Shown: in pieces, positions 22,235 to 63,970 of the stretch | Position numbering within the stretch: the stretch's first letter is position 1 | Layout of the letters: each line of letters opens with the position of its first letter | Origin: an uncultured Nitrospiraceae bacterium | Lineage (GTDB): Bacteria; Hydrogenedentota; Hydrogenedentia; Hydrogenedentales; SLHB01 | NCBI GenBank assembly: GCA_964402555.1 | Contig: CAYOCT010000001.1 | Coordinates: 204,049-268,048 of the forward strand | Direction: 5' to 3' | Length of the DNA stretch: 64,000 nucleotides | Position numbers and translations under genes: made by a program | Notes under the pieces: generated by a model | Database searches by the model: none | What the model saw: the letters and a program-made list of their open reading frames with translations, nothing else | Told to the model about the DNA's origin: nothing

Positions 22235-22240
22235 CATCGC

Positions 22241-22309: not shown

Positions 22310-22391
22310 TTCACCGACTTGCGTGCGGTTCCTTGTGGCGCCGCGATTCTCTGTCCTTTCAAATGAACAGAGAATCGCGGAGGTGTTGCAA

Positions 22392-33516: not shown

Positions 33517-36600
<3,084 letters not shown>

Positions 36601-46200: not shown

Positions 46201-46211
46201 GAGGAAGCCCC

Positions 46212-46382: not shown

Positions 46383-46490
46383 GACGAGCGTCTAGAGCCG
46401 TATCCACAACCATATGTGATGGGGAGATGCCTCCAGAATGGGACATCTCCCCTTCATCATTCACGAAACAACTTACAGGAGGTGAAAACC

Positions 46491-46685
46491 ATGAAAGTGT
46501 TCGTAGCCGTCGAAACGTTCCAGGGTGTCGTTCATGACGCCACGGCGTATATGACGGAGGAGTCAGCCCGGCGCGCCGAAAAGGCGTGGCTGGACCAGAT
46601 GGGCATCAAGAGCCAAGATGCCCGCGAATGCAAATCGGACGATGGTACGAGTTTCAGTGTCATGAAATGTGACCTGAAACCGTAA
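46491..46685 (+). CDS. Small hypothetical protein, 64 aa
   Basis: RBS AGGAGGTG. Confidence 0.45.
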   Translation: MKVFVAVETFQGVVHDATAYMTEESARRAEKAWLDQMGIKSQDARECKSDDGTSFSVMKCDLKP

Positions 46686-46783
46686 CCGCCGCACGATCAG
46701 GGCTCTGTGTTTCTGGGAGACGTCCCGCTGTTGGGATGTCTCCCTTTCTTCATTTCCGAAACCAAAACAAGGAGAGACAAATC

Positions 46784-48292: not shown

Positions 48293-49668
48293 ATACTCTG
48301 CAAACCTTCAAACTCTGGCTTGAGCCGGACCGGGATATCCCGCAGTTTCGTCGTTTGCGTTGGGCAGCGGAAAGCGTGTCTGTCCAGGATGTGTTGCTGA
48401 CTGGGGTCCATCCCTGGTCGGGGCCGGACAAGCACAGCACACTGCCTGAAGCCATGCTACGAAATGTCAATGAAGAAACGGCAAGGCTCCCGGAACTGGT
48501 TCAATTCGGCTATTGTGGCGACGTGAATGTGCTCTCCGGCTACGCGTGGGACAAACCGTCGAGGTTCGATCGGGTCCTGCAGGCAATTCACGAACACGTC
48601 TACTTCGTGGATGACTTGTCGTACCTCGATCTGCTCAACATAGCCAAGGCGAGGTTGCGGAACATGTGGACGCATTCGACGGTCCGGGAAATGGCCAGAG
48701 ACGCTCACCCTGGATTCCAGGAGCTGCGGCAGTTTCTGAAAAGCAAGGACAAGCAGATCAAGCTATCCAGCTATGAGGACGTCGACCAGTATGACCTGGC
48801 CAAGGTGCTCACGCTGGACGACTTCGAGCAACGCGACAACCTTGTCATTTCGCACGCCATTCCCACGTTGAACTTCCGCAAAGCCGCGCTTCTGAGCAAG
48901 GTGACGGACGATCAAGGCCGGCTGCGCCTCGTGCCGGAAATCCGCCACGTGACCCTAACGGAAACGGCGCTGAAGCCGGACTATGTTCACACAGTCTGGC
49001 ATGTCGCGCGTGAGGGTTCGATGTGGCGCTTCCGGCCGGACATCGGCGACGCTAAGACTAAGCGGCAGCACACTCAGAAGTTTGCAGCCCAATGGCGGAC
49101 GGATGATGGGCGGTTGTGTTTCACAACCACCACGGAAAAACTCGTCGCGATGGTCGAGTGCAAAGCCGTTGAGCCGTCGTTTCCGAGCCTGAACTACAAC
49201 TCAGCGGAACATGGTCCTACAGCTTGCGCCGTCGTGGATTCCTCGCACGTCAAGGCCTTTCATATCGGGCGGTTTGCGCGCGCAGGAACCACTGGCGACC
49301 AGCTAAAGGATATCCTCCATAAATACGAGGTGTCCATGACCGGCAACAAGGATCAATTGCTCCAGAAATTGGCCAAGCTCGCAGCGACCAAATACCGGGA
49401 ACGATTGCCCGAGATGGATCGGTTCTTCGCACGGCATCGTTTTGTTCGCATGCAGAGTGCGCCGTCGAGTGTAGCCGAGTTGCCGCTCATTGAGGACCTG
49501 GCCTACCTGCGGAACCTCGTTCTGACGATGTACGCAGTCAAACATATGCGTGGCGATGCTATTCTCGAAGCCTCCCACCAGAACAACACGTACACGGACG
49601 AGGAACTGGCATTTGCCTTGGTCACCGGAAAGGTCGGCCTGCAAGGGGCCTTCCTGCGCGTCGCCTGA
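48289..49668 (+). CDS. Hypothetical 459-aa protein with SAP-like motif; third partner of the vWA-MoxR module
   Basis: ATGA overlap with the MoxR gene. GNKDQLLQKLAKLAA. Confidence 0.5.
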   Translation: MNTLQTFKLWLEPDRDIPQFRRLRWAAESVSVQDVLLTGVHPWSGPDKHSTLPEAMLRNVNEETARLPELVQFGYCGDVNVLSGYAWDKPSRFDRVLQAIHEHVYFVDDLSYLDLLNIAKARLRNMWTHSTVREMARDAHPGFQELRQFLKSKDKQIKLSSYEDVDQYDLAKVLTLDDFEQRDNLVISHAIPTLNFRKAALLSKVTDDQGRLRLVPEIRHVTLTETALKPDYVHTVWHVAREGSMWRFRPDIGDAKTKRQHTQKFAAQWRTDDGRLCFTTTTEKLVAMVECKAVEPSFPSLNYNSAEHGPTACAVVDSSHVKAFHIGRFARAGTTGDQLKDILHKYEVSMTGNKDQLLQKLAKLAATKYRERLPEMDRFFARHRFVRMQSAPSSVAELPLIEDLAYLRNLVLTMYAVKHMRGDAILEASHQNNTYTDEELAFALVTGKVGLQGAFLRVA

Positions 49669-49881: not shown

Positions 49882-50478
49882 TTGAGTCTTAGTGTGGAAC
49901 GAGAACGAATAAATAGCCTTGACGATCTTCTTGACGCGATTCACCCGTCGCGCGCGCACGATGTCTACCGACGGAAAATAGACGAAGCTTTGCGCACTTT
50001 CCCCTTCCAGTCGTTCCAAGTTGACAATTGGGGTTCGTGTCAATCTTTTGTTGCGCGTTTCTTTGCGCGTATCAATGGAGCCATCATGGGCCCCCAGTTT
50101 GAGGAAAGCCCCGACCTCGCCATGGTTACATTTCGCAATGTTTTCCGGTCAAGATACGGCGAGCTCCCCGAGAGAGCCTTATTCGAAAGAATCATCTTCG
50201 GCCACGAGAGTGGTATGAATGGCTTTGTGCGAGAGGCGGTCGACACCGCAGTCCAGTTCTTTGCACACACACATATAGCCAACCGAGTAGACCAATACAT
50301 GGACACTCTGTCTGACGATGAGTATTCCGCAGCGGGTGATGCGTACGTGGCGAAGTGGGGCCATCTTCTTCCAAGCGAGATGATTAGTAAAGGTTCACAT
50401 CATTATCCCCCAGCCCTGCGCAATGTTCTCAAACAGCACACCGAACTGCTCCTGAGACTGCGGAGCATCCCTAAATGA
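49882..50478 (+). CDS. Hypothetical protein, tandem paralog 1 (non-ATG start TTG at 49882 or GTG at 49894)
   Basis: About 60% identical to 50519..51106 (FDEALRTFPFQSF, GMNGFVR, AKWGHLLPSE). Confidence 0.5.
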   Translation: MSLSVERERINSLDDLLDAIHPSRAHDVYRRKIDEALRTFPFQSFQVDNWGSCQSFVARFFARINGAIMGPQFEESPDLAMVTFRNVFRSRYGELPERALFERIIFGHESGMNGFVREAVDTAVQFFAHTHIANRVDQYMDTLSDDEYSAAGDAYVAKWGHLLPSEMISKGSHHYPPALRNVLKQHTELLLRLRSIPK

Positions 50479-50518
50479 ACGAGCGGTGTGACTTGTAGAC
50501 CGCATGCAAGGACTTGGC

Positions 50519-51106
50519 ATGGAACAAGAAGGAAAAAGAATCAGCAGCCTTGAAGAGCTTCTTGAGACAATCGATCCCTCGCGTACATACGACGTGTTTC
50601 GACGGCGATTCGACGAGGCCTTGCGCACTTTTCCTTTTCAGTCGTTCCGGGTCAATGACTGGGCTTCCTGCGATCTTTTTGTCGCCAGTTTATTTGCACG
50701 AATCAATACCGTCCTTTTGCAGGGGGCATCGGACAACAACCTCGATTTGGGCTTGGTTACATTTCGAAACGTTTTCCGATCGATGTATGGAGATCGCCCC
50801 GAAAGGCTGCTGTACGAGAGAATCATTCATGGTCACGACAGTGGCATGAATGGCTTTGTACGCGACGCCATCGACGCGGCCGTGGAGTTTTGTGCTGCAG
50901 TGCCCATAGCCAATCGCGTGGACGAGTACATCGACAGCCTGTCGAACGACGAGTATGATACCGCCGCTCGATATTATTTGGCTAAATGGGGACACCTTCT
51001 TCCAAGCGAGATCACGGACAGGGGCTTGCCACGTTTCGCGCCACTTCTGCGCCAGTTCCTAAAGCAGCATCCGAGATCCGTCCTGCAGATGCGAAAAATC
51101 CGTTGA
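50519..51106 (+). CDS. Hypothetical protein, tandem paralog 2
   Basis: See paralog 1. Confidence 0.55.
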   Translation: MEQEGKRISSLEELLETIDPSRTYDVFRRRFDEALRTFPFQSFRVNDWASCDLFVASLFARINTVLLQGASDNNLDLGLVTFRNVFRSMYGDRPERLLYERIIHGHDSGMNGFVRDAIDAAVEFCAAVPIANRVDEYIDSLSNDEYDTAARYYLAKWGHLLPSEITDRGLPRFAPLLRQFLKQHPRSVLQMRKIR

Positions 51107-51172: not shown

Positions 51173-52024
51173 CTAAAGTGGCTGAATACTCGTATTCAGC
51201 ATCTCTACGTTCGTAAACATCTTTGGGAAAACGGAGAGAAGATATTCCTTGGGGGAACTTCCAGGAAGGCTCAACTGATGAGGAATTTCGCCGGCGGTCA
51301 GAACGGCAATGCCTGAATCACGCTGGACGAGCACAAACGCCAGTATCCAGTAATAACTTATGCGAGGAGTTGAAGAGTCCTTGCGCTCGAGAGCCCCTGT
51401 CGGCAATCCGTAAAGCTCCCTTACGTGCGATGTACCATTCTCTATGAGTGCGTCAATGGCCTTATATCCGTCCGTCCGTATAGGTGAGAAGACTTCGCAG
51501 CGTAAGGCTCTCTGTTTCTCTCTTAATACCCACGCGCCAGCGAGAGGGATAGCTTCCGCAGCCTTCTGGCCACACCAAAACGTGGAAGGAAGCAGATCGC
51601 CTGTAAGCCCGTTTATGATGAAGTCCCGGTCGTGACTTGACTCACATGCGTATTCGCCGTACTGCGTAGCCCGTTCCCATTGTTTGCCTCGCAATCTGTA
51701 GTATCGCCCCTCATTGCAGACAATTCCATGCGGGATCAGCCCTTCAAGCACACGCTCAATGCGGTCTTCGCCAATACCGAGGTACTCGTCGAGTTCGTCC
51801 AGCGTTGCCCGATCAAGAATCACCATGAGCTTCAGAACCGTGCGTTCTATCAGGCCGAGTGGCTGCGTATTCCGCTGTCGAACGGTGTGGGTCGCCTGCA
51901 AAATTGGGAAGATAACAGGAATAGCTTGCACGGGCGCCCTATGTCCGCTCTGAGGACAGTTGGCGAGAACGTTGTCCAGGGCCTTCTGCCACGGGTGGCG
52001 TTTCGAGGGCACTTCACTCGCCAT
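51173..52024 (-). CDS. wHTH (MarR-like) domain protein coupled to the SF1 helicase
   Basis: LIERTVLKLMVILDRATLDELDEYLGIGEDRIERVL. 11-nt overlap with the helicase stop. Confidence 0.55.
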   Translation of the reverse strand: MASEVPSKRHPWQKALDNVLANCPQSGHRAPVQAIPVIFPILQATHTVRQRNTQPLGLIERTVLKLMVILDRATLDELDEYLGIGEDRIERVLEGLIPHGIVCNEGRYYRLRGKQWERATQYGEYACESSHDRDFIINGLTGDLLPSTFWCGQKAAEAIPLAGAWVLREKQRALRCEVFSPIRTDGYKAIDALIENGTSHVRELYGLPTGALERKDSSTPRISYYWILAFVLVQRDSGIAVLTAGEIPHQLSLPGSSPKEYLLSVFPKMFTNVEMLNTSIQPL

Positions 52025-55000
52025 AGTTCTTTTCCCATACAGGGCAGACTTTCCCTGTATCCAACACATAATTCCTGTAGCGTCTAAGAACTTCCCGGCC
52101 CTTTTCGTGTCTGCTTAGTCTCTCATCACAGAGGGCGCTGACGTCTCCCACAAGAATCAACATGCATCGGGCCCTTGAAAAGGCAACGTTCATGCGCTTC
52201 AAGTCCAGGGCAAAATCAAGATAGGTTCCCAAGAACCCTCTACCTCTGCATTGTCCACATCTCTGTCCGCGGGCGGTCATGCCCTGTCCATGGCACCCTC
52301 GGCAGGGCTTCGGGCTGCGGGTAAAGGATACGATGATAATGTCGCATTCGCTGCCCTGGAAACTGTCGACTGAGTCTACAATCGGTCGTATTCGCTTGAA
52401 GGGGTACTTTGCATTACGCTGAAGCTGTCTCTCGATGGCGGCTTTTTGAGCCGCATACGGGGTGATTACGCCGATACTGACTTCTCGAGTGTGCTCAAAC
52501 GTTTCCGCTTTCTCAAGGATGCTGCAAACGATATTGGCCTCGAGGTCGTTGCGATAGCCTGTTCCGACCCGTTCTTCATGACGGTCCTCGCCATACTCCA
52601 TGGTCGAAATCAGGCATACAGGTTTGGTGAACTTGCCGAAGTTAATGGTACCGTGCGGGGCTTCGAGGGGGGATCTGAGATTTCCCTCATAGAACACTTC
52701 GCTGATGAACGCCCCGATGGTGCGATGCATGCGAAACTGCCGATCGAGCATCACGCCACATCCGCCGGCGAAACTTGGCCAGAGTTCCGCAAATAGACTT
52801 GAATCGAGCAAACAGAGCGGATCGTCATCGTTGGCGGCGGGACATGCCGGATGCCGTTCAGCGTCGGCAACACAATCCACATTCATGCTGCCGTTAGGCG
52901 GGAGCTGCATGTCGTCACCGATCAGGAGAAGCCTCCTGGCATGGAAGGCCGGAATGAGTGTCTCAGGCGTCGTGGCTTTTCCTGCCTCGTCGATGATGAC
53001 AAGGTCGATACTCTGAGGTCTTCCGTTATGCAGTTCCTTCCATGACGCAAGCCCGACACACGTTGCAAGAAACACCTGGACGTCATCCATCAGGAACTTA
53101 CTGATTTCTCCTGACTCACGATTCGCGATTACCTTGTCGCGCCATTCGCGTATGACCTCGTAAATGGACTGAGTACGCGCGAGCTCCGCTGCGTATTTCT
53201 CAACAAGGGCGTTCTGGTCGTCTTCCGTCCAGGATTCCAGGCTTCTGCCCTCTTCACTCAGAAGGTCGCGTAGCGGCATGAGGGGATTGAAGTATTCTTC
53301 ATCCAGGGCGCTGCGCTCCTTGCCGAACCGCTGCAGATCCCTGGAAAACTCCTCCTCAATGACGCGTTCACGCTGGGACAAATGGAGGTAGATCTGCTCA
53401 GTACTCTTCTGATGGGCAGCGGTCTCATGGGCGACAGCTTCGGCGGCAACCATCGCCTCATGTTTGCCAGAGAGAAGCGCGGCCTTTGCCTGGTCTGCCT
53501 TGTCCATGTAGGACTTGAGTTTCGTTTCTAGGGCTGTTTTTGAGGAGAGACGCTCAGAAAAGATGCCCGCAAATTGGGAGACGAGGGTAGGTATTTCTGT
53601 CAGGAACCGGCGGTTGTCAATGCGAGTCCGAAGCTGCGTTTGGCGTCGCGTGTTGGCGGCCAGAATCGCCTCTTGTGCGCTAACGCGCTTTTGGCACTCG
53701 TCCCGGCTGGTCTGTAGCGCGTTCATCCTTTGTGAATGGGCCGTATTCAACGCCAACTGATCGTTTCCGGCTTTTGCTCGAGCACTTGCCAATTGCTCAT
53801 GACGTATCCTCGTGGACTCGTCTCCTTTACGCTGGATTTGAGCAATCCGTGCTCGGTATTCCCGGAGTGCAAGAGTTACGCAGTACCAGGTGTCAACGCT
53901 GTGTTTCAGTTCTTTGCAGCGAACGCGAAGAGACTGGAACTTCTTGTCCGCGCGTTCTCCCAGTAACGAAAGCTCGCGATCGATGTCGAACGAGCATCTT
54001 TGGTCGATATCCTCGCGTCTCTCCGCCCGGGCGTAACGCAGCATACGGCACTTGTCCTCTTCCAGCCGTTCCATCACGTTCACGACGGCCTGATGCGTCT
54101 GGCTGCATACCAGGACACGGCCACCGCGCTCAACGATGTGGCGAACCACCTCGACAATGACGGAGGTCTTTCCGGTCCCGGGGGGACCTTTGACCAGAGC
54201 GACGGGGACTTCATCACTCAGCGCAAGCTGAACCGCCTCGGCCTGCTGTGGGTTTCCTGCAATGTGCGGGTCCTTGAACTCCAGGGAGGGGAGAATCCGG
54301 GGTCTTGCGGGCGGAGATACCATCGCGCGGAAGACAGGATGTTCCCAATTGATGGCATCACACCACTGGCGGACGTAGGCCTTCTGTTTTATTTCCGCGC
54401 CAGACAATCGTCTGGGCTGGGCTCGAAAGACTTCCGGGATACTTTCCTTGTCGACGGTGTTGGGGAAGCGCAATCGAAGGTACAGCGTTTTCCTGTTTTC
54501 AAAGCGGCCGCTTTTCAACTCTACCTCATTGATGTTGCGTCGTCCGCCAGGTCCTTGCTGAAGTGAGGAAATCGCAAGAGGCTCTCCTGCTTGCATTTGT
54601 TGCCCGGTGAACAACTGGAGGAGCGTTCCCTCAGGCCAGGGCATTTCCCCGCTGCTCTTCCACTCGGGTGTCGGCAGGACTTTGAAGTCATAATCGATAT
54701 ATCCCGGAGTCTCGCCAACCACGGCGGCGCGATCCCCGAGGAGCAAGGCCGGGCTCTGCTCGTCAGGCTGGATGAAATGGTCGAGGCATTCGAGAAGGCC
54801 CTTCCAGTGTTGCGCGGCCATCTTGCAGGCAACGTTGTCGAGGAGGAAACCTCTGGCTGACGACGCCTTTAGTACATCATTCAGAAACGTCTCTACGGCA
54901 ACAGGGCTCGACACGTCGCATCTTCGGAGCCAATCAAAGACGGTAACGTTTGAAGGGTCGATCTCAACGTGTCTGACGCCGTGCTCTCCGTTCTCCTTGA

Positions 55001-55886
55001 GAACAAAGGCGTTGTTGCGCAGATCGTAGTTTATGGGCTGCAGGCCCGAACCTTTACAGAGGTTGCACTTACCTGTTCCATGACAGGGCCGGCAAGGATT
55101 TAACCCTCTTCCACCGCAGGGGCGGCAGGATACGGAGCCCTTCCCACTACATGAACGACAGTCATGGTCATGGGGCCGGAAGTTACCCGATCCCCCGCAT
55201 TTGTGACACGTGAGCCTCCCGCCGCCTGAACATCTCTTACAGACAAGAATACCTGTTCCATCGCACACAGTGCAATGAGCGGATCCTCTACACTTGGAGC
55301 AGGTCGAAGCGTACCAGGATTCTGGTGGTTCAAACGGAAGCCAACGCAAGGGATGAAAGGACACTGGAAAGTCGCCGGAACGAGCGGGATGCACCGGGCA
55401 CTGAAGGAGATATGCAATGGGGACGCGTTCATTCGCCATTATTCGGTCTGCGATGAGCAATCGAGTTCCTGCTGACGGCGTTACGGTCAGCGTCAACTCT
55501 TTAATGCGGTAAAATAGAATCATACTGGCTTGGGACTTCTTGCTGAGAGGGCTGCCTTTCTTGACAGGGCTCACGTAGGCCCGAGTCCCAACGACGTTCG
55601 TGACTTCGCCAACATCGGTAGGCGTAACACCCTCTTCCCAGGAGGGACGGCAATCAAAAAGACGGGCGTCTTTCCTGTCCTCGATACCGATTGCGTAATA
55701 CCCTCCAGGGACCGGCTGGGTCACTTCGCTGCACCACATTTCGGCATCCGGGGTGTGCAGGAGTTCGCATAGAAGGGCTTCCGGATCCTGGATGTCCCGT
55801 ACTCCACGAGCGGCAAGAATGGGAACTATGTCCTGCGAGAAACGCGTTATCAGGCCCCTGGGGAGCACGATGGGCACCCCGGTCAT
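52014..55886 (-). CDS. Upf1/Dna2-like SF1 helicase (AAA_11/AAA_12) with DnaJ-type CxxCxGxG zinc-finger arrays and a coiled-coil insert
   Basis: GPPGTGKTS, DEAGKATTPE, QFRMHRTIGAFISEVFY and DSFQGSECDIIIVSF. CxxCxGxG repeated about 8 times N-terminally and again near the C-terminus. RBS GAGGAGGA before the ATG at 55886. Confidence 0.8.
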   Translation of the reverse strand: MTGVPIVLPRGLITRFSQDIVPILAARGVRDIQDPEALLCELLHTPDAEMWCSEVTQPVPGGYYAIGIEDRKDARLFDCRPSWEEGVTPTDVGEVTNVVGTRAYVSPVKKGSPLSKKSQASMILFYRIKELTLTVTPSAGTRLLIADRIMANERVPIAYLLQCPVHPARSGDFPVSFHPLRWLPFEPPESWYASTCSKCRGSAHCTVCDGTGILVCKRCSGGGRLTCHKCGGSGNFRPHDHDCRSCSGKGSVSCRPCGGRGLNPCRPCHGTGKCNLCKGSGLQPINYDLRNNAFVLKENGEHGVRHVEIDPSNVTVFDWLRRCDVSSPVAVETFLNDVLKASSARGFLLDNVACKMAAQHWKGLLECLDHFIQPDEQSPALLLGDRAAVVGETPGYIDYDFKVLPTPEWKSSGEMPWPEGTLLQLFTGQQMQAGEPLAISSLQQGPGGRRNINEVELKSGRFENRKTLYLRLRFPNTVDKESIPEVFRAQPRRLSGAEIKQKAYVRQWCDAINWEHPVFRAMVSPPARPRILPSLEFKDPHIAGNPQQAEAVQLALSDEVPVALVKGPPGTGKTSVIVEVVRHIVERGGRVLVCSQTHQAVVNVMERLEEDKCRMLRYARAERREDIDQRCSFDIDRELSLLGERADKKFQSLRVRCKELKHSVDTWYCVTLALREYRARIAQIQRKGDESTRIRHEQLASARAKAGNDQLALNTAHSQRMNALQTSRDECQKRVSAQEAILAANTRRQTQLRTRIDNRRFLTEIPTLVSQFAGIFSERLSSKTALETKLKSYMDKADQAKAALLSGKHEAMVAAEAVAHETAAHQKSTEQIYLHLSQRERVIEEEFSRDLQRFGKERSALDEEYFNPLMPLRDLLSEEGRSLESWTEDDQNALVEKYAAELARTQSIYEVIREWRDKVIANRESGEISKFLMDDVQVFLATCVGLASWKELHNGRPQSIDLVIIDEAGKATTPETLIPAFHARRLLLIGDDMQLPPNGSMNVDCVADAERHPACPAANDDDPLCLLDSSLFAELWPSFAGGCGVMLDRQFRMHRTIGAFISEVFYEGNLRSPLEAPHGTINFGKFTKPVCLISTMEYGEDRHEERVGTGYRNDLEANIVCSILEKAETFEHTREVSIGVITPYAAQKAAIERQLQRNAKYPFKRIRPIVDSVDSFQGSECDIIIVSFTRSPKPCRGCHGQGMTARGQRCGQCRGRGFLGTYLDFALDLKRMNVAFSRARCMLILVGDVSALCDERLSRHEKGREVLRRYRNYVLDTGKVCPVWEKNYGE

Positions 55887-56917
55887 GCGATCTCCTCCTC
55901 GAACGCCAGCACTCTCACCACGTGACATGGAGAAGAATTGGAGGGGTCCAATCGCTGAATTGGCCCGTACGGAAACCCGTATGGTGCAGGGGGGGCATCC
56001 CCCATGTTGGTCACGCCGAGCAGTGAGAGCGCACGTCTTGCCTCCTGTGTGATTTTCACAGTGACGCCTGCCCCGTGTCAGGCGCTTCGTTCGACGCGTG
56101 CTCGCCGTCGCTCATTTCTGAATCCCCACGCGTCCCCAAGATCGCCTTCTTGGCAATGACATATCGCACATTATCATAGGTTCTCCGGCCGGAAATCATG
56201 GCGGATTCAGACGTGAAGTGCAACATGCGCCGAGCGGACGGGCGCCCGAGTGTTCTTGAGGCGGCCGAGGCATCTTCGATGCGCCCGCTGTAGCGAATTG
56301 CCCAACGATGCTTTGCAACATAACGCCCCCGGCCAGTTCCCGCGCTGGCCTCGCCCTGCCCAAGGGACTAGACAGGTCGTAGGAACCGCGTCCGGCCTAT
56401 GCTTGTCGTGTCCGACGAGCATCACAATCACCGAGGGGCTGACAAAGTAATTTGAGTAACAGCCCGGCGGCAATCTCCACGTAAGTTCTTGCCCCGTAAC
56501 GGGCTTCTCGAAAAGGAATCGCGCCTCTCGGGCACGCTCCGCGTATTTCGCGATCATACTGGGCGCCAACGAGCATCTTGCCCCTACGATCCCACGCTCA
56601 AACCGCATTCCCGCCGCTGACGCAACGCTCTACCGGTTCGATGTGAAGAAGAGCGCGGCCACGGACAGATCGTGCTGATTTATCCTCACAAGCCGTGGTA
56701 AGATAGCCGGGTTGTTGATACGGTCGATCTGCCCTGCGAAGGGCATGGCCGGCCTTGAAGACTCATCTTCCGAGATAAACTTGATTACCGGCCAGACAGA
56801 CTTCAACTGCCTTGCCGCGTTGGGATGCGCGTTTATAAGAATGAGGTCTCAGGTGCGGCGAACGACCCTGCGGGAGGCAGAAGGCCTCTGGTATGCGGGA
56901 AGGAACGTGACACGATC

Positions 56918-58147
56918 ATGTTTAGAGAAAAGAAAGACGCCCTGGACGAGCGGCGAGGGTCGCCTTCTGAGAGAATCGACTTCAGAAGCGTATCCTTGGG
57001 CGTTCTTTGTGAACACATCGCCAAGGGAAGCGTTGCTGCCTTAGACGAATTTCTGACAAATCGGCGTGTGTTTCCGGGCCGGGCCGAACCGCCCAAAGCG
57101 CTCCTATTCGGCCCGTACGTGGAATTGATCCGACAGAAGACTCTCAAGGCAGGCTGGTGGCAATCCAAGGGAACGGAGTTTGTTGACCGTTCCGTGGAGC
57201 TTCTGATTGCGCGCTTCACCAATCTTCCGTCCAGCGAGACAGCGCCTGACAGTGCCGCACCAGAGGAGAACCAAGAGGACGCGGAAGTGGATGGCTGCAA
57301 CGTTGATCGTCGCGTCTATTTCAAAGCGTTCCTCGCGTCCCTTACGAAGCACTCTAGAGAAAACTCAGTAGCGGGTGAACTCGAACGCGAGCGGCGCGAG
57401 GCGTTTCTCATGCAGGGTTTTCTGTGGCGTCAGTTCTTCTATTGCTTACAGGAGGCCGGACGCGAAGCGAATCAGCTAATGAACCGATATGCTTGGGATT
57501 TCGGATCTGGCCGGATCATCGTGTGGTTCCCGAAATCGTTCAGTGGAAGGCCCCGCAAGCTATGGCTTGAAGAGCATGTTGGCCAGCCTGACTTGACCAA
57601 AGATGGAGAACTCGAACGCATTCAGGCGATCATCGACGAACATTTCGGACGACAAATGCAGTTTTCGATAGACGAGCACTTCGCGGATAGATTAGCGGGA
57701 AGCTTGTCGCCGCCTGACGCCGGGCTCAAAGTTGAAGACGGGGGCACGATGCGTCACCTGATTGCCCATGAAAAGGCTGCTGAAGCCAAGAAACTGCCGC
57801 CAGCGATTCGTAGTCTGGGCTACGACAGAATTGTCGAATTGGTGATAACCATTCTGGACAACATCGTCTCCGAATTGTGCTCAGACGTAGAGATCGCGCG
57901 GCGCTTCGGGCTTAGCACAGCCACATTCAGCCGCTTCGCAGGACGCCAGCGCTGGGATAAATGGCGTGAGGACCGCGAGAATCCGCCGCCACATTTGGCG
58001 GTGAACTCGGCTCGAGCTCTGAGGAAGCACCGGGACTTCATTGAAACCGCTCGTGAGATGGGGCTGATCGACGCGAAACAAGCTATAGAGGCGAAACAGA
58101 ATACTGAGGTGAAGCAAGATACTGAGGTAAAACCCGATGGCACATGA
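56918..58147 (+). CDS. Hypothetical protein with C-terminal HTH
   Basis: DVEIARRFGLSTATFSRFAG. Confidence 0.5.
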   Translation: MFREKKDALDERRGSPSERIDFRSVSLGVLCEHIAKGSVAALDEFLTNRRVFPGRAEPPKALLFGPYVELIRQKTLKAGWWQSKGTEFVDRSVELLIARFTNLPSSETAPDSAAPEENQEDAEVDGCNVDRRVYFKAFLASLTKHSRENSVAGELERERREAFLMQGFLWRQFFYCLQEAGREANQLMNRYAWDFGSGRIIVWFPKSFSGRPRKLWLEEHVGQPDLTKDGELERIQAIIDEHFGRQMQFSIDEHFADRLAGSLSPPDAGLKVEDGGTMRHLIAHEKAAEAKKLPPAIRSLGYDRIVELVITILDNIVSELCSDVEIARRFGLSTATFSRFAGRQRWDKWREDRENPPPHLAVNSARALRKHRDFIETAREMGLIDAKQAIEAKQNTEVKQDTEVKPDGT

Positions 58148-58808
58148 ACTCTATTTTCTTCCCATTCTCCTCGACGCGCTTGATTCGACGCAGTGCCGGG
58201 AGGCCCTGCGGGATGCTTTCTCTAAGATCATCTCGCTGGGTCGGGAACCGGGATATGAACTTGGCTACGCCCGGTTCAAGGAATTTATGAAGATGGTCGG
58301 CGAAGGGCCTTCGTCGGATGAGCAATCGGACTCGGACAACGCAGTGGTTCAATTCCTTATCTCATTCTGTGAACAGATGAGCCCACGTGGAGCCGTGAGC
58401 GCGGGTCTACAAACGGATCCGATCCTTTACAAACGTTGCCAGAGACTGGTGGGCGAGCTTCAACAACTGATGCCTGCCCAAATCACTTTGGAGATCGTCT
58501 TGGAAAGAGGAGATGAAGTTCTTGCCCGTCTCGATGCATGCCAAGGAGGGACACTCGGACGGGTTAGACGTATTCGCCCTGGGACCTACCGCTTGAGTCT
58601 GTCCACGGGGCGGATGCTGTGGGAGGGGATTCTAACGAGGGCGGACTTGCTGTGTGAAGGCCAGCCACTGGCAATGGCAGCCGATGAGAACGGGGCGGCC
58701 GGCGAGCCGGCACGCGAGATCGCGGTGCTGAGTGGCGAGATCGTCATGAAAGTCTATCGGGGTTTGGAGAGCGGCGTGTTGGAGATTGTGCGGATGCTAA
58801 CAGGATGA
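58137..58808 (+). CDS. Hypothetical protein
   Basis: Overlaps both neighbours. Confidence 0.45.
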   Translation: MAHELYFLPILLDALDSTQCREALRDAFSKIISLGREPGYELGYARFKEFMKMVGEGPSSDEQSDSDNAVVQFLISFCEQMSPRGAVSAGLQTDPILYKRCQRLVGELQQLMPAQITLEIVLERGDEVLARLDACQGGTLGRVRRIRPGTYRLSLSTGRMLWEGILTRADLLCEGQPLAMAADENGAAGEPAREIAVLSGEIVMKVYRGLESGVLEIVRMLTG

Positions 58809-60496
58809 TGGGCAGACCGGCGAGCGAAAACAAGATCGGACGGGTGCCGACGTTGCTTGTAGTACAGTCGGACCAACGGGCGTTTCTATGCACGGTAACG
58901 GCGGAGCACCGCGAGAATGCGGGGGAACAGCGGGTTCATTTTTCCGGCGGCGCGATAATTGCACCCGCTGTGGCCGACCACGTCGTCTCGGTAGTAGTTC
59001 CTTTGGTGGAAGGCGTGTGTCGGTTGCTGGGTGAGTCGGTTTCTCGATGGGACATTGTTTATGAGTCAATTGAGGCGGCGGCGGCGTGCGAAACACCGTT
59101 GTCTGTGTCCGGGAACTCGGGAGATCTATCGCTGTTTCTCGTCCTCTTGTCGTCGGCTCTACAGCTTCCCCTTCGCCAAGATGCAGTTGCCACGGGGCTC
59201 TTTACGTCAGCCGCGGGGGGCATTGGATCCGTAGGAAGCATTCCAGAGAAACTTCACGCGGCAATAGCCGATTCGCGCATGCGGCTTTTTCTGCACCCGC
59301 CTTTTGGCGTGGACAAATCGTTGGATGCCTTGGTTCCTGATGAGTACAGCCGGATAGAGGAAGCTGTGGCGGATGCCCGGAGGAAGGCTATACGCCTTAC
59401 ACCGGTGAAGGATGTGGCCGATCTTGTTCGCGAGGTACTTGACGAAGAAAGCATAGTGTTGTCCAGTCTTCATAAGGGCTATTTCGACCGGGGATTTGAC
59501 CGGATCTCGCCGGATACGCCGGTTACGAGCGCCGCTCGCCATCTCCTCGCAGGAAATCAAACGCGGTTCTGGCATTGTCTCGGGAACGCCCTGAGGTCTC
59601 AGGAACCGGAACGTGTTAGCCTGTTGTTGTCCGCGTATCTTCAATTCCACGAACGGAAAGAGTCTTACCCTTCGCGTGTTGGGGCCCAACTTATCCAGCG
59701 CCTTCGCACGCTTCCGCCCGTTATGCGACGTGCGTTGCCGAAACCTCTCGTGCCTTCGTCTATGTGCTTTGCCGTAGCTCGTTACGCTTTCGAAACGGAT
59801 ACGGAAGACGCCCAGGCGCTCTTGAAGGCGAACAAAGGCCAGACTTGGTTGAATGAAGGTGAGTCCGGACCTGAAGATCCGGAGGTGCCTGCCGCGAAAT
59901 TGGGTGGGGACGATGCCGATCAGACTTTGGACGCTATTCTGAATCAGTTGAGCGGGGAGAACGTCGTCAAGGCTGCCGGACGTGACATAGACAACGCGTG
60001 TGTTTCCTTCTCGACGGACAGCAGTCTCGCTTCCTCAGCAGACGCCTTCACGGAAGTAGTGACGTCGTTCTATCTCCATTTGCTCTCCGAAACCGGCGTC
60101 CTGCTGACAAGAATCAATTCCAGTGCGGCGGAAAGGGATGCTCTGCGCTTGGTGGAACAGGCATTCCATAAGCAAGGAGGTCTAGAAGGAGCACGTCGAG
60201 AGGCGGAAATAGGTGTAAACGGGGGCCTTCGAGCTGTTCTGGATGCTATGGCCGATTACTATAGGACCCAGGCGGTGGAAAACCATATCATGTTCGTTCT
60301 GGAAACGGCGTTGGACGATCGGGACCGGCCGGCCAAGGTAGCTCTCATAAGAGCATTCCTGCGCCGGTTCGAAGGGCTGCTTCCGCCGGACATTGCCCAG
60401 ACCGAGCCCGAAGACCTCGTTGGTCAATGGAAAGTCATTGCTCACGCTTACGCAAGATCGTTGGATTCATTGAAGAACCTTATCCGAAGACTTTAA
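58805..60496 (+). CDS. Lon-like (S16) protease-domain protein with a long C-terminal helical region
   Basis: SVSGNSGDLSLFLVLLSSALQLPLRQDAVATGLFTSAAGGIGSVGSIPEKLHAA aligns with the Lon proteolytic core (Ser in GNSGD, Lys in IPEK). Confidence 0.6.
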   Translation: MMGRPASENKIGRVPTLLVVQSDQRAFLCTVTAEHRENAGEQRVHFSGGAIIAPAVADHVVSVVVPLVEGVCRLLGESVSRWDIVYESIEAAAACETPLSVSGNSGDLSLFLVLLSSALQLPLRQDAVATGLFTSAAGGIGSVGSIPEKLHAAIADSRMRLFLHPPFGVDKSLDALVPDEYSRIEEAVADARRKAIRLTPVKDVADLVREVLDEESIVLSSLHKGYFDRGFDRISPDTPVTSAARHLLAGNQTRFWHCLGNALRSQEPERVSLLLSAYLQFHERKESYPSRVGAQLIQRLRTLPPVMRRALPKPLVPSSMCFAVARYAFETDTEDAQALLKANKGQTWLNEGESGPEDPEVPAAKLGGDDADQTLDAILNQLSGENVVKAAGRDIDNACVSFSTDSSLASSADAFTEVVTSFYLHLLSETGVLLTRINSSAAERDALRLVEQAFHKQGGLEGARREAEIGVNGGLRAVLDAMADYYRTQAVENHIMFVLETALDDRDRPAKVALIRAFLRRFEGLLPPDIAQTEPEDLVGQWKVIAHAYARSLDSLKNLIRRL

Positions 60497-60516
60497 CAGC
60501 AGATGGAAGGATGCCG

Positions 60517-61095
60517 ATGAGCGCCATAGACTCTCTGATAGCGGAACTGAGCGAACAGGCAATTCTCAACAATGCAAGCAGGAAGTACGACGACGCGAGG
60601 ATTCAGTATGCCCTGCCTTCGATTACCGTGCGTGATTTTGACGAGTTTACCGAGATCGTTAGCGACTACGTGCAACGCACATACAGCACCTGCATGATTC
60701 ATGGCGGCTGGATTTCCACGGCGAACGCCGCAGGCATTGGAAAGGAGATCCTCAACAATTCAGGCGGTCGTCGAGGCGCAGACGTAATGACCTACTACAT
60801 GGATTCTAAGGAAGGTATCAATGGAGGACTGCGCCAGTGCTTGGACACTCTTTGCGAAGGTATGAAGCGGCAGGCAGTGGAGCGATATACCCGCGATGTT
60901 TTCGACCGATACTTGCCACCGGATAACAGAGACCTATTAGAGCACATGGTAGTTGAATTCATCCAGCGGTACGACAAGCTTCTTCCTGGAATCGACCGGA
61001 CGCGGCCACATTGGTACGCTCGCAATCTTGAGACGCTGATCCGCGCCGTGCTGCATGCCACAGAAGATATGGCCAGCATTTACCGCCGACTCTGA
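60517..61095 (+). CDS. Hypothetical protein
   Basis: RBS GGAAGG. Confidence 0.45.
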   Translation: MSAIDSLIAELSEQAILNNASRKYDDARIQYALPSITVRDFDEFTEIVSDYVQRTYSTCMIHGGWISTANAAGIGKEILNNSGGRRGADVMTYYMDSKEGINGGLRQCLDTLCEGMKRQAVERYTRDVFDRYLPPDNRDLLEHMVVEFIQRYDKLLPGIDRTRPHWYARNLETLIRAVLHATEDMASIYRRL

Positions 61096-61492
61096 AACCC
61101 AAGAAAGAGTCAAGCGTGCTCTGAAATCCCTCGCTCTGATCTGAAAAACATCCGGCGTCTATGGGGGATGCCCAGAGTCATCGGCGCCAATAGGATGTTT
61201 CCTGGCGGATCATGGGTAAGGCGCAGAGACCGCTGCCTCAACAGCCTGCCTCAGCGAACACATTCATCCATGCCTTCCGATAGGATTCATCGCAAAATGA
61301 AAGCGGGCTGAACCGGCTCCCAATCCCGACCGCAATGACCGGCCAGTGCATGTTGCTTCTGGAACAGCATTCGCTTCTTTCAAAGGCCGTAAACGCCTTT
61401 GTCCCTTGAAACCGATTTCCCTGATCCTGCCGAGGAATCGCTTCTGAAACTTCTAATTTGTCTCCTCCGCTAATACTCAAAAGGAGGAATTT

Positions 61493-63970
61493 ATGCCGAT
61501 AGACCGTCAGATGTTGCCGCAAATCCATTCCAGCATGCTGGCCGCCAAGGCGCGAATCATCTTTGACAAGGAGAGGACGAAGGGGTGTTTACCTGAAATC
61601 TCCTCGACACCGGTTGAGCTGGAACCGCCCTTTCAGGCGCTTGTGGACCCAGAGGACCTGCTCTACGTCGCCGAACAGCCCCCCTTCACTCCAACGATGC
61701 CGCCCATCAAGGAGGACTGGATTCGGCTCAAGATATGGGTGCCCCCCGGACAGGAGTGCGACTGGCTCAGGAATGAACACGTCGTCAAGCAGTTTGTCGC
61801 CCTCAAGCACAGGATCACGTTCGAAATCACTGGAAACCGCGACGGGATTTCTCTGGCCCATCTGTGCCACAAGGAGGATGAGCCCGTAGTGCGTGCCGCA
61901 ACATGCGGTTTCTTTCCGGACTGCGAATTCTCCGTGTGCCGCGATCACCCGCTGGATCTCCTGCCGGAGGCTGCATGGCAAAGCGCTGTCTTCGATGATT
62001 TCTACACGCCGCCTCCCTACAGTCATCTGTTGACGAGGCCAAGCGAACTTAAGCTGTCGCCGCTTGAATCACTGGTGAACGCTTTGAGCATCCTTGCCCC
62101 ACCGAGCGTGGGAGTCTACCAAGTCGTCCTTCAGCCGACGCCCCACAATCACGCGTGGTCCTGCAATGTGGAACTTCTCATCGACCTCGAGTACCTGATG
62201 AAGTTGCACAGCGGCCACCCTGTACAGCAGCGTTTCACGCAGCAAGCACCGTCGGGCCAACTCAACAACATGGCCAATGACGTCGAAACCAAATCCCACC
62301 CTGACAAGCCGTTCTTCTGCGCAGCTGTGCGCGTAGGTCTCCTGGGGCACACAAATGGCGGCCCATCCAACACGCTGCGCGCACTAACCCCCTTCATGAA
62401 CCTGTTTCAGCATGGCAAACGCCCGCTCGAAACACTAACGCAGGACGATTATCTTCGACACGTCTCGTCCCGACAAACGCGCGACATGTTCAGACTTGGC
62501 GTGACATACCGGGCCGGGGCTCTGCTCAACAGCGCAGAGGTCTCCGGCCTGCTGCACGTTCCTCCTATGCAAGTACTCATACGCCGTCGTATCGATATCT
62601 CTGTTGCGAATTCCTTTCCCGCTCGTGGCGAAGCGTTACGGGGGGGCACATGCATCGGCATCGCCACGTCGGCAGAAGAAAGCACGAAGGTGTGTATACC
62701 CGACGAACGGCGTTGCTCCCATGTTTACATTCCCGGCAAACCCGGGACAGGAAAGACCTGCGCGATGATTCATGCCTGCGGCGAGGATATTGCCCATGGG
62801 CACGGTATTGCGATTATCGACCCGCATGACGATCTTTGCGCAGGGGTCATGAACCGCATTGCCGAGCGGGACCTCGACAGGGTCATCTATTTCGATCCGG
62901 GGCACCCGACACTTGTGCCGCTCTGGAATTTCCTTGCCCCGCAGAGTGGCCAACTTGCCGACCGCCAAGCAGATGATCGCCTGAGTGCCTTTACTCAGGT
63001 AACGACCGGCTGGGGGCATCGACTTGAAACGCTCATGCGTCAGGCGTTCTTCGGCCTCATCCAAACGGGCGCAGGCACCCTGCTCGATGTGTCCCGGCTC
63101 CTGTCAACTGACACCCCCGAGAGGGAGCGGATACGTCTGCGGATCTTAGAGGTCGTCGAAAACGAAAAGGCGCGGTACTTTTGGGAACACGAACTCAAGA
63201 CATACCGCAAGGAGGATTTCGCTCCCGTGCAACACAAATTGAGCAAACTCTTGCTTTATGAGACAGCGGCTTTGATGTTTTCGCAACTGGAAAATCGCTT
63301 CGATTTCCGCGAAATGATGGACACCGGCAAGATCTTCATCGCCAACCTGGCAAACGTGGGCAGCGAAGCGCGCGACATTTTGGGCAGCTTGCTGCTGTCC
63401 GTGTTCCATCTTGCCGCGCTGAGCAGAAGTAATATCCCCGACCACGCCCGCAAACCATTCCATGTCTATGTAGATGAGGCGCACCGCTTTGTAACTCCAG
63501 CCATGGAAGACATGCTGGCCGAAACGCGCAAGTATGACTGTAGCCTCACACTTGCACACCAGTACTTAAGTCAGTTCCAGGAGGCGAAGCGGGTCGATGC
63601 GCTGGGTGTTGTGGGTACGACAATTGCCTTCAATGTCGCCGCTACGGATGCGCCGCGGATCGCCAAATTCTTGGGAGGCCAAGTGTCCGCCGAGGATTTG
63701 ACCACGCTTGCACATCGGGAAGCCATCGCTCGAATCGGTAACGACGTGGTTCGGATAATGACGCCTAATCTTAGCGAGATACGTGACACATCGATGGGTG
63801 ATCGGGCAAAGCAACTTTCCTATGACAGATACTACAAACCCGTGCAAGAAGTCCGGGATGCCGTCCGTAGGAGGATCAAGACTTCGACTAAGTGCTCACC
63901 TGCCGGACCGCATCGTTCTCGCGGGGAGATCTCGATGAAGGGATATCAGTATGACGAGTTCCCTTCCTAA
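61493..63970 (+). CDS. FtsK/HerA-superfamily P-loop ATPase (TraD/VirD4- or DUF87-like)
   Basis: Walker A HVYIPGKPGTGKT. Walker B HVYVDEAHRF. Confidence 0.7.
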   Translation: MPIDRQMLPQIHSSMLAAKARIIFDKERTKGCLPEISSTPVELEPPFQALVDPEDLLYVAEQPPFTPTMPPIKEDWIRLKIWVPPGQECDWLRNEHVVKQFVALKHRITFEITGNRDGISLAHLCHKEDEPVVRAATCGFFPDCEFSVCRDHPLDLLPEAAWQSAVFDDFYTPPPYSHLLTRPSELKLSPLESLVNALSILAPPSVGVYQVVLQPTPHNHAWSCNVELLIDLEYLMKLHSGHPVQQRFTQQAPSGQLNNMANDVETKSHPDKPFFCAAVRVGLLGHTNGGPSNTLRALTPFMNLFQHGKRPLETLTQDDYLRHVSSRQTRDMFRLGVTYRAGALLNSAEVSGLLHVPPMQVLIRRRIDISVANSFPARGEALRGGTCIGIATSAEESTKVCIPDERRCSHVYIPGKPGTGKTCAMIHACGEDIAHGHGIAIIDPHDDLCAGVMNRIAERDLDRVIYFDPGHPTLVPLWNFLAPQSGQLADRQADDRLSAFTQVTTGWGHRLETLMRQAFFGLIQTGAGTLLDVSRLLSTDTPERERIRLRILEVVENEKARYFWEHELKTYRKEDFAPVQHKLSKLLLYETAALMFSQLENRFDFREMMDTGKIFIANLANVGSEARDILGSLLLSVFHLAALSRSNIPDHARKPFHVYVDEAHRFVTPAMEDMLAETRKYDCSLTLAHQYLSQFQEAKRVDALGVVGTTIAFNVAATDAPRIAKFLGGQVSAEDLTTLAHREAIARIGNDVVRIMTPNLSEIRDTSMGDRAKQLSYDRYYKPVQEVRDAVRRRIKTSTKCSPAGPHRSRGEISMKGYQYDEFPS

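What the first reader, a model, noticed from the sequence alone, without database searches (positions are those of the whole stretch)
51173..55886. Upf1-like SF1 helicase decorated with DnaJ-type CxxCxGxG zinc-finger arrays, coupled to a wHTH protein
The 1290-aa protein has the full set of SF1B/Upf1-like motifs. In front of the motor it carries about 8 tandem CxxCxGxG repeats (CTVCDGTG, CKRCSGGG, CHKCGGSG, CRSCSGKG, CRPCGGRG, CRPCHGTG, CNLCKGSG) of the DnaJ zinc-finger type. A second pair (CRGCHGQG...CGQCRGRG) is inserted near the C-terminus. A roughly 300-aa coiled-coil or low-complexity insert sits between helicase subdomains. The gene overlaps a wHTH protein gene. Upf1-like helicases recur in prokaryotic defence and in plasmid control. 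The DnaJ-type Zn-finger fusion is not something I recognise.
Basis: partly seen in the sequence, partly recalled or inferred. Interest (0 to 1): 0.7.

Follow-up and report, generated by a model that had tools for sequence, protein, structure and literature searches.

The report
Mokosh-like helicase with zinc-ladder arm
This gene pair is a rare, undescribed relative of the Mokosh anti-phage helicase–nuclease system, in which the helicase carries a zinc-stapled hairpin of DnaJ-type fingers, but this copy has lost its nuclease.

Summary
A 1290-aa Upf1-like SF1 helicase (52014-55886, minus strand) carries 8 CxxC motifs at aa 196-281 and 2 more between helicase motifs V and VI. Shuffles of the protein expect 0.007 strict motifs; 9 are present.

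The protein is not an orphan. About 40 clusters at 50% identity share the whole architecture at 27-38% identity. The known genome carriers are Verrucomicrobia and Planctomycetota.

The helicase core is closest to Mokosh type I MkoA, but the kinase domain is replaced by a new N-terminal domain plus the zinc array. Spacing between successive CxxC motifs is palindromic in 28 of 33 members, and the motif count is even. This fits a DnaJ-style nested hairpin with 3-7 zinc sites, 4 here.

The "wHTH partner" is only the first ~280 residues of a ~800-aa MkoB-like protein. In 14 of 16 related loci that protein ends in a tandem-HKD PLD nuclease, fused or on the next gene. The window holds no matching PLD, so the effector is missing.

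The only other PLD-less locus shares with the window a six-gene neighbour cluster with Lon-like and TraD/HerA-like proteins. This is unexplained.

Verdict: a new variant of a known kind, and a degenerate copy.

The parts
52014..55886 (-). Gene for the 1290-aa MkoA-like Upf1-family SF1 helicase (intact)
   Evidence: ORF list; RBS and start codon; Pfam AAA_11/AAA_12; PADLOC MkoA 2.6e-98; PDB Upf1 2.4e-28; full-length homologues at 27-38% identity
55317..55886 (-). N-terminal alpha/beta domain (aa 1-190), family-specific, with no Pfam match. It takes the place of the Ser/Thr kinase domain of canonical type I MkoA.
55044..55301 (-). Zinc ladder: 8 CxxC motifs (7 strict CxxCxGxG), aa 196-281, with spacing 9-11-11-16-11-11-9. 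Predicted to be a nested hairpin holding 4 Zn.
54252..55019 (-). Region between the array and RecA1 (aa 290-545): beta elements, a 40-residue helix, a beta-barrel and helices. Interpreted as the stalk plus 1B barrel of Upf1-like helicases.
54075..54251 (-). First part of RecA1, with the Q motif, Walker A (GPPGTGKT) and motif Ia (CSQTHQAV)
   Evidence: Read from the sequence; invariant columns
53067..54074 (-). Helix-rich insert of about 335 aa between motifs Ia and II. Its length varies across the family.
   Evidence: AAA_11 hit split over 453 residues. Composition and heptad test. Canonical MkoA has a shorter insert at the same place. Members range from 867 to 1679 aa.
52017..53066 (-). Rest of RecA1 (motifs II DEAG and III) and RecA2 (motifs IV-VI)
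52236..52304 (-). Single zinc knuckle, CRGCHGQG-x7-CGQCRGRG, inserted between motifs V and VI
   Evidence: A 26-residue gap falls exactly here in the alignment to Nostoc MkoA. Present in most family members and absent in one clade, P0041/46/66/67/68/72.
51173..52024 (-). Truncated MkoB-like adaptor gene (283 aa; alternative ATG at 52069 gives 298 aa). It holds only the N-domain and lacks both the middle domain and the PLD nuclease.
   Evidence: 33% identity, E 2e-40, to residues 11-281 of the 821-aa PLD protein of L001. Same result against 11 other loci. PADLOC MkoB 1.7e-5, model positions 4-206 of 610. hhalign to Nostoc MkoB: 84% probability, 8e-6. No HKD motif. No homologue of the family's PLD domain (tblastn with the L001 partner) anywhere in the window; the only Pfam PLD hit in the window is in an unrelated SNF2 helicase at 13644-17048.
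51698..51847 (-). Putative winged-helix segment of the adaptor
   Evidence: Pfam TrmB 1e-3, 19 bits, below the cutoff. Family profile against a MarR structure 0.065. Helix-helix-helix-strand-strand pattern in a low-confidence model.
56052..56081 (-). Sigma-70-like promoter match about 165 nt upstream of the helicase start (consensus match only)
56825..63970 (+). Genes A, B, C, D and F of a six-gene cluster shared with the only other PLD-less family locus. Whether it is linked to the helicase is unresolved.
   Evidence: BLASTP to L174: 27-37% identity, E 1e-22 to 1e-67. C has a weak Lon-protease-like match and F a TraD-like match. F hits PADLOC mad8 at 1e-8.
49882..51106 (+). Two tandem copies of gene E of that cluster (57% identical to each other), abutting the truncated 3' end of the adaptor gene

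Best explanation
The locus is a degenerate copy of a rare, so far unnamed subtype of the Mokosh type I helicase-nuclease defence system. In complete systems (14 of 16 loci examined) three functions are encoded in a row, with overlapping or adjacent genes. The first is an MkoA-like Upf1-family helicase whose kinase domain is replaced by a new N-terminal domain plus a DnaJ-type zinc ladder. The second is an MkoB-like adaptor with an N-domain (possibly a winged helix) and a middle domain. The third is a tandem-HKD PLD nuclease, either fused to the adaptor or on the next gene. By analogy with Mokosh, the ATP-driven helicase would recognise or translocate on phage RNA or replication intermediates and, through the adaptor, position or license the PLD nuclease. 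This step is an inference. The zinc ladder is predicted to be a rigid antiparallel hairpin in which motif i pairs with motif n+1-i, as in DnaJ where motif 1 pairs with 4 and 2 with 3. That gives 4 Zn here and 3-7 in relatives. It most likely serves as a protein-recognition or regulatory arm, because DnaJ, BSD2 and anti-TRAP zinc modules bind proteins; this too is an inference. In this window the helicase is intact, but the adaptor stops after its N-domain and neither its own PLD domain nor a PLD gene follows it. The pair should therefore be unable to act as a nuclease-based defence. It is either a recent remnant or has been re-used.
For: Helicase identity. Closest relatives outside the family are STK-helicase MkoA proteins next to PLD genes. 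The family exists and keeps the whole architecture. Adaptor plus PLD follow the helicase in L001-L004, L007-L009, L087-L089, L167, L168, L171, L173 and L176. Two intact HKD motifs are present in 10 of the 11 complete PLD proteins checked; L007 has one strict and one degenerate motif, and L087 is cut by the contig end. The window partner aligns only to the first ~280 residues of these proteins, and tblastn with the L001 partner found no PLD remnant in the window. Adaptor N-domain is homologous to the MkoB N-domain. DnaJ-type fingers. Palindromic spacing and even motif counts. The window is a defence island. Mokosh requires both the ATPase and the PLD sites (Millman et al., bioRxiv 10.1101/2022.05.11.491447).
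Against: No experiment exists for any member. The PADLOC MkoB model is weak on the window partner and silent at 1e-3 on the full-length L001 partner, so the relationship to MkoB is distant. The helicase ORF shows no decay, which is unexpected for a dead system. The truncated adaptor still has an intact, translationally coupled ORF that ends near a domain boundary. A second PLD-less locus shares a neighbouring six-gene cluster with the window, which hints at an alternative partnership. The pairing topology of the ladder is inferred from spacing and DnaJ analogy, not read from coordinates.
Confidence: 0.7

Rival explanations
1. The zinc-ladder helicase is a transferable sensor or motor module, and in this genome it works with the neighbouring six-gene cluster A-F (HTH-like A, Lon-like C and D, TraD/HerA-like ATPase F) instead of a PLD nuclease.
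For: The only two PLD-less loci, the window and L172/L174, both carry A-F within about 5 kb, at 27-37% identity. None of the 14 PLD-containing loci does within the available flanks. The two helicases are not sisters in an NJ tree, and the sister of P0048 has a PLD, so the association arose or was kept twice. F hits PADLOC mad8 and HerA-type models.
Against: There are only two loci. Gene order and strand relative to the helicase differ between them: divergent in the window, 4 kb downstream in L174. Gene E lies on the other side of the helicase in the window. Several comparison loci have short flanks. A-F has no known function. Defence islands and ICE-like elements often bring unrelated genes together.
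Confidence: 0.15
2. One reading: a self-sufficient two-gene module of a helicase and a small wHTH regulator, working without a nuclease.
For: Both ORFs are intact and overlap by 11 nt. The partner retains the whole conserved N-domain, with weak wHTH signals. Its end is close to a domain boundary.
Against: In 14 of 16 relatives the same N-domain is followed by a middle domain and a PLD. No other locus has a short partner. The nearest relative, P0033, has the full 821-aa partner.
Confidence: 0.1
3. The truncation is an assembly or binning artefact, and the real genome has a complete adaptor-PLD gene.
For: The source is a single NCBI contig with one copy on record, probably from a metagenome-derived assembly. 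The break falls between convergent genes.
Against: The ORF ends with a normal stop, and there is no N run or repeat at the junction. Flanking genes are coherent and match L174.
Confidence: 0.05

Closest known systems
Mokosh type I (MkoA + MkoB; Millman et al. 2022). The example examined here is Nostoc plasmid pNPM2, locus L170.
   Same: Both have a Upf1-like SF1 helicase followed on the same strand by a PLD-family nuclease gene. The helicase core is 32% identical over aa 872-1248. PADLOC MkoA scores 2.6e-98. The partner N-domain is homologous to the MkoB N-domain. Both sit in defence islands.
   Different: There is no Ser/Thr kinase domain; a new N-domain plus a zinc ladder takes its place. 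An extra zinc knuckle sits between motifs V and VI. The insert in RecA1 is longer. The partner has an extra middle domain and tandem HKD motifs, and is sometimes split into two genes. In this window the PLD is missing altogether.
DnaJ/Hsp40 cysteine-rich domain and its stand-alone relatives (BSD2, anti-TRAP)
   Same: They share the CxxCxGxG motif. The family profile matches DnaJ CR at 2.4e-7. The model fold matches BSD2. The nested pairing implied by palindromic spacing matches the 1+4 / 2+3 pairing of DnaJ.
   Different: There are 6-14 motifs (3-7 predicted Zn) instead of 4 (2 Zn). There is no J domain, G/F region or substrate-binding C-terminal domains. The array is embedded in a helicase. 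Pfam scores are below the gathering cutoffs.
Eukaryotic Upf1-like helicases with zinc modules (Upf1 CH domain, ZNFX1, HELZ2, MOV10/MOV10L1)
   Same: They combine an SF1B Upf1-type core with cysteine-rich zinc modules outside the motor. ZNFX1 and MOV10L1 are listed as MkoA relatives with immune roles (bioRxiv 10.1101/2022.12.12.520048). The structural hits include ZNFX1, Sen1 and Ighmbp2.
   Different: The zinc modules are of unrelated types (CH, NFX1, CCCH). No homology outside the helicase core was shown here. Any regulatory analogy is speculation.

Membership tests
Mokosh type I | Upf1-like (COG1112) SF1 helicase protein (MkoA) | tested here: met
   PADLOC MkoA PDLC03920 at 2.6e-98 and PDLC03921 at 3e-85; Pfam AAA_11/AAA_12; Upf1 structures at 2.4e-28
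Mokosh type I | Adjacent gene with a PLD-family nuclease domain (MkoB) | tested here: not met
   The partner has no Pfam PLD hit and no HKD motif. tblastn with the L001 PLD partner finds nothing in the window beyond the N-domain. The feature is met in 14 of 16 related loci.
Mokosh type I | Ser/Thr kinase domain in the helicase protein | tested here: not met
   No kinase family among the Pfam hits at E up to 0.1. BLASTP to Nostoc MkoA aligns only the helicase core.
Mokosh type I | Partner shares the MkoB N-terminal domain | tested here: met
   PADLOC MkoB 1.7e-5, positions 4-206 of 610. hhalign of the adaptor profile against Nostoc MkoB: probability 84%, E 8e-6. The relationship is distant.
Mokosh type I | Anti-phage protection that depends on the ATPase and PLD active sites | not testable with these tools
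   Requires phage challenge of cloned systems.
Mokosh type II (MkoC) | Helicase and PLD nuclease in one polypeptide | tested here: not met
   The MkoC hit covers only helicase segments, and the protein has no PLD domain.
DnaJ cysteine-rich zinc-finger domain (PF00684) | Repeated CxxCxGxG motifs | tested here: met
   7 strict plus 1 relaxed motif at the N-terminus and 2 at the C-terminus, against 0.007 expected
DnaJ cysteine-rich zinc-finger domain (PF00684) | Significant sequence or structure similarity to the domain | tested here: met
   [not shown]
DnaJ cysteine-rich zinc-finger domain (PF00684) | Nested pairing of motifs into zinc centres (outer with outer, inner with inner) | tested here: inconclusive
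   Even motif counts and palindromic spacing in 28 of 33 members (shuffle P 0.002-0.07 each) fit this pairing. Model coordinates could not be inspected and zinc binding is untested.
DnaJ/Hsp40 co-chaperones | J domain with an HPD motif | tested here: not met
   No DnaJ (J-domain) hit in Pfam or NCBIfam. The only hit is a 0.061 match to the zinc segment of TIGR02349.
Upf1-like SF1B helicases | Seven SF1 motifs, plus an accessory stalk and 1B barrel ahead of RecA1 and an insertion within RecA1 | tested here: met
   [not shown]
Winged helix-turn-helix regulators (TrmB/MarR type) | Significant match to a wHTH family in the partner | tested here: inconclusive
   TrmB 1e-3, 19 bits against a cutoff of 25.6, in 1 of 11 members. 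MarR structure 0.065 and GntR 0.71 with the profile. The single-sequence AF2 model is poor, pLDDT 35.

The most novel reading that the evidence does not exclude
The zinc ladder is a new kind of variable-length, zinc-stapled hairpin sensor arm on an immune helicase. The helicase-ladder unit may also be a portable module that has at least twice left its PLD nuclease and joined an uncharacterised six-gene Lon-like / TraD-HerA-like cluster (A-F), which would define a new multi-gene defence or element-control system.
Probability: 0.2. Interest if true: 0.7.

Novelty: new variant of a known kind. Interest (0 to 1): 0.45.

Why it matters
Mokosh is widespread, but its mechanism is unresolved, and type I could not even be purified in a recent survey (bioRxiv 10.1101/2025.07.10.664194). 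This subtype swaps the kinase for a regular, expandable zinc ladder and sometimes splits the adaptor from the nuclease. That gives natural domain-swap and split variants for asking which part senses infection and how the nuclease is licensed. The ladder extends the two-zinc DnaJ cysteine-rich fold to 3-7 predicted rungs while keeping mirror-symmetric spacing. I found no description of such an extension, and it can be tested directly by zinc stoichiometry and structure determination. For this particular window the practical message is more modest: the copy lacks its effector and should not be annotated as a working defence system.

Tried and rejected
- All three word-indexed protein searches returned only the query itself plus generic helicases, even when given the family alignment. 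The family appeared only in the exhaustive HMMER search.
- A single-sequence AF2 model of the partner was unusable, pLDDT 35.
- The exact-protein look-up of P0001 found no indexed contig, and cluster look-ups gave no names or accessions. The source organism of the window remains unknown.
- Viral contigs hold no family member and no homologue of cluster gene C. The phage and plasmid collections hold only core-helicase or zinc-segment matches.
- The afdb50 fold library was unavailable. The BFVD search gave only small DnaJ-CR phage proteins.
- Rfam and PHROGs found nothing in or around the locus.
- A crude heptad test did not support 'coiled coil' for the insert.
- An apparent in-frame extension of homology past the partner's stop codon is too weak to count as a pseudogene remnant.
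- I considered and rejected a housekeeping Upf1/Ighmbp2/Dna2-type role. The distribution is sporadic, the gene sits in a defence island, it is partnered with a PLD in relatives, and its closest outgroup is MkoA.
Full report

The minus strand carries an ORF at 52014..55928. The second ATG, at 55886, is preceded by GGAGGAG and coincides with the first residue of every homologue. The product is therefore 1290 aa, which is also the NCBI call (P0001).

In 1290-aa numbering, eight CxxC motifs start at residues 196, 205, 216, 227, 243, 254, 265 and 274. Seven are strict CxxCxGxG. Two more start at 1195 and 1210. Shuffles of the protein expect 0.007 strict motifs against the 9 observed.

Pfam gives AAA_11 (5.6e-35) and AAA_12 (5.4e-39). 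The best solved relatives are Upf1/Nam7 (2.4e-28), Ighmbp2, SETX/Sen1 and Dna2. All SF1 motifs can be read in the sequence and are invariant in the family alignment.

The AAA_11 match is stretched over 453 residues. This reflects a ~335-aa insert (aa 605-940) between motifs Ia and II. The insert is poor in Pro and Gly (3.5%) and rich in A, E, L, K, R and Q (55%). A crude heptad test did not single it out, so 'helical insert' is justified and 'coiled coil' is not.

The downstream ORF (51173..52024 as called by NCBI, 283 aa, P0032) overlaps the helicase stop codon by 11 nt.

**2. The protein is not a one-off.**

Word-indexed searches found only the query itself. The exhaustive HMMER scan of 1.84 billion cluster representatives found about 40 clusters that align over essentially the full length at 31-38% identity (P0033-P0078).

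These homologues keep the same layout: an N-terminal domain of about 190 aa, a CxxC array, a middle region, a helicase with a variable insert, and usually the C-terminal CxxC pair. The N-terminal arrays hold 6, 8, 10, 12 or 14 CxxC motifs in nearly all intact members. A few members have lost the array (P0061-63, P0065). One clade lacks the C-terminal pair (P0041/46/66/67/68/72).

Species-representative genomes yielded two Verrucomicrobia MAGs and one Roseimaritima (Planctomycetota) MAG. No member was found in the phage, plasmid or IMG/VR collections.

**3. What the cysteine repeats are.**

The single sequence scores below the Pfam cutoffs for DnaJ_CXXCXGXG and BSD2_CRD. The family profile, however, hits the solved E. 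coli DnaJ cysteine-rich domain (1exk) at 2.4e-7, BSD2 at 1.4e-5, DNAJA3 at 1.5e-5 and anti-TRAP at 0.013.

The distances between successive CxxC motifs form a palindrome with the longest gap at the centre. In the window they are 9-11-11-16-11-11-9. In P0054 they are 11-11-9-11-13-20-13-11-9-11-11. This holds within one residue in 28 of 33 members. For 15 distinct spacing patterns, a random order reaches that symmetry with P 0.002-0.07 each.

Together with the even motif counts, this is what a nested antiparallel hairpin predicts. Motif i and motif n+1-i would share one zinc, as motifs 1+4 and 2+3 do in DnaJ (established knowledge of 1exk). The hairpin would be extended by adding symmetric pairs. 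I therefore call it a zinc ladder with 4 predicted rungs here and 3-7 in relatives. The pairing is inferred; I could not inspect coordinates, and zinc binding is untested.

**4. The rest of the helicase.**

Against a canonical type I MkoA from Nostoc plasmid pNPM2, the alignment shows a 26-residue gap exactly at the C-terminal CxxC pair. The pair is therefore a family-specific insertion in RecA2 between motifs V and VI.

**5. Which system it belongs to.**

PADLOC models place the helicase with Mokosh MkoA (2.6e-98 and 3e-85). In the plasmid collection the best matches are proteins annotated 'serine/threonine-protein kinase', which are STK-helicase MkoA proteins. They match only over aa ~870-1250. 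The Nostoc example sits beside a PLD gene and a CBASS operon.

Mokosh is defined by a COG1112/Upf1-like helicase plus a PLD nuclease. Type I adds a kinase domain to the helicase. Both the ATPase and the PLD sites are needed for defence (bioRxiv 10.1101/2022.05.11.491447).

**6. What the partner really is.**

I examined sixteen family loci, counting the window. In fourteen of them the helicase gene is followed immediately, usually with an overlap, by one of two arrangements:

- One protein of ~750-820 aa: L001, L003, L004, L008, L088, L089, L167, L171, L173, L176.
- Two proteins of ~455-495 aa and ~375-390 aa: L002, L007, L009, L168; also L087, where the second gene is cut by the contig end.

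In both arrangements the C-terminal part is a tandem PLDc_2 domain. Two intact HxKx4D motifs are present in 10 of the 11 complete PLD proteins I checked. L007 has one strict and one degenerate motif, and L087 is cut by the contig end.

The window's partner aligns to the first ~280 residues of these proteins and then stops: 33% identity and E 2e-40 to L001, and similar results for the rest. It lacks the middle domain and the PLD. tblastn with the L001 partner's PLD region finds no homologue anywhere in the 64 kb. The only Pfam PLD hit in the window belongs to an unrelated SNF2 helicase at 13644-17048.

The retained N-domain is distantly homologous to the N-domain of canonical MkoB (PADLOC 1.7e-5; hhalign 84% probability and 8e-6). 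Its winged-helix character is only weakly supported.

The window's nearest relative, P0033, has the full-length partner, so the loss is lineage-specific.

**7. An unexplained association.**

The only other locus without a PLD (P0048, L172/L174) has no adaptor remnant at all. It shares six neighbouring genes with the window at 27-37% identity:

| Gene | Window | L174 | Notes |
|---|---|---|---|
| A | 56825-58147 | 18042-19139 | |
| B | 58137-58808 | 19136-19840 | |
| C | 58805-60496 | 19833-21485 | Weak Lon-protease-like N-terminus |
| D | 60427-61095 | 21498-22073 | Related to the C-terminal part of C |
| E | 49882-50478 and 50504-51106 | 22042-22638 | Two tandem copies in the window, on the far side of the helicase pair |
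| F | 61493-63970 | 22738 onward | TraD/HerA-like; PADLOC mad8 1e-8 |

None of the 14 PLD-containing loci shows these genes in the available flanks. The two helicases are not sisters, and the sister of P0048 has a PLD. With two loci and uneven flanks, this is a lead and not a result.

**8. Mechanism.**

Shown here:

- The domain composition of the helicase.
- Its homology to MkoA and DnaJ-CR, and the partner's homology to MkoB.
- The conserved helicase-adaptor-PLD gene order.
- The intact catalytic motifs in relatives.
- The absence of the effector in this window.

Inferred:

- The helicase senses or tracks foreign RNA or replication intermediates and licenses the PLD nuclease through the adaptor, by analogy to Mokosh and other nuclease-NTPase systems.
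- The ladder is a protein-binding or regulatory arm, by analogy to DnaJ, BSD2 and anti-TRAP, and loosely to the Upf1 CH domain.
- The window copy is inactive as a nuclease system.

**9. Verdict.**

The locus is a new variant of a known kind, Mokosh type I, represented here by a copy that has lost its nuclease. Interest is moderate. The zinc ladder and the natural fused, split and lost-effector variants are useful handles on an unresolved system, but nothing suggests a categorically new principle unless the A-F association proves functional.

Noticed in passing
window 56825-63970 (+) and 49882-51106 (+); L174 18042-23711: A six-gene cluster A-F with no known function is shared, at 27-37% identity, between the window and the only other PLD-less family locus. 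C is Lon-protease-like, D is related to the C-terminus of C, and F is a TraD/HerA-like ATPase (DUF8128 in L174). In the window, gene E is duplicated in tandem and lies on the other side of the helicase pair.
   Followed up: partly
window 8291-17048 (-): Three overlapping or adjacent genes: a 1134-aa PLD + SNF2 helicase (13644-17048), a 1132-aa Eco57I/MmeI-type methyltransferase (10255-13653) and a 655-aa protein with no Pfam match (8291-10258). This looks like a DISARM-like or type ISP-like restriction module.
   Followed up: no
window 3063-8044 (-): Further defence-type genes: a Schlafen AlbA_2 + HATPase_c_4 + wHTH protein (5308-6954), a DUF3644 protein (6980-8044) and a weak PIN_3 match (3063-4532).
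   Followed up: no
window 44893-49668 (+): A DUF2201 VWA-like protein (44893-46200), a MoxR-type AAA_5 ATPase (46736-48292) and an overlapping 466-aa protein with no family match. L174 also has VWA and AAA_5/DUF87 genes just upstream of its helicase, but no sequence similarity to the window's genes was detected.
   Followed up: partly
window 24494-26593 (-) and 33517-36600 (-): A HerA-like DUF87 ATPase (699 aa), and a 1027-aa protein with BACON, TrAA12-like and weak metallopeptidase M12 matches.
   Followed up: no
[not shown]
   Followed up: partly
L171 3989-6010: In a family member that has lost the N-terminal zinc array (P0062), an RtcR-like sigma-54 activator gene overlaps the helicase start, while the PLD partner is retained.
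   Followed up: no
L007 11718-14315, L008 3364-9955, L089 76-4449, L167 1562-4096, L168 14014-16614: A large gene (~865-1450 aa) with faint TPR matches recurs next to the helicase-PLD pair in 5 loci. A 688-aa gene recurs in L004, L007 and L168. Neither has a homologue in window 38000-64000, the only part searched.
   Followed up: partly
L176 10001-13618 (P0060): This helicase loses family similarity within the C-terminal zinc-knuckle region and ends about 85 residues short, which suggests a frameshift. The PLD gene follows after a 175-nt gap.
   Followed up: no
phage records LR745206.1, LR756502.1, LR756504.1 (630-640 kb uncultured phages): tblastn matches of 34-38% identity to the zinc-ladder segment alone (aa 194-286). 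Jumbo phages therefore encode multi-repeat DnaJ-CR-like arrays.
   Followed up: no
window 55929-56824: The ~900-nt gap between the divergent helicase gene and gene A has no Rfam match. It has only one weak promoter-like site, and a 133-aa minus-strand ORF (56207-56608) with no PHROGs match; it was not scanned against Pfam.
   Followed up: partly
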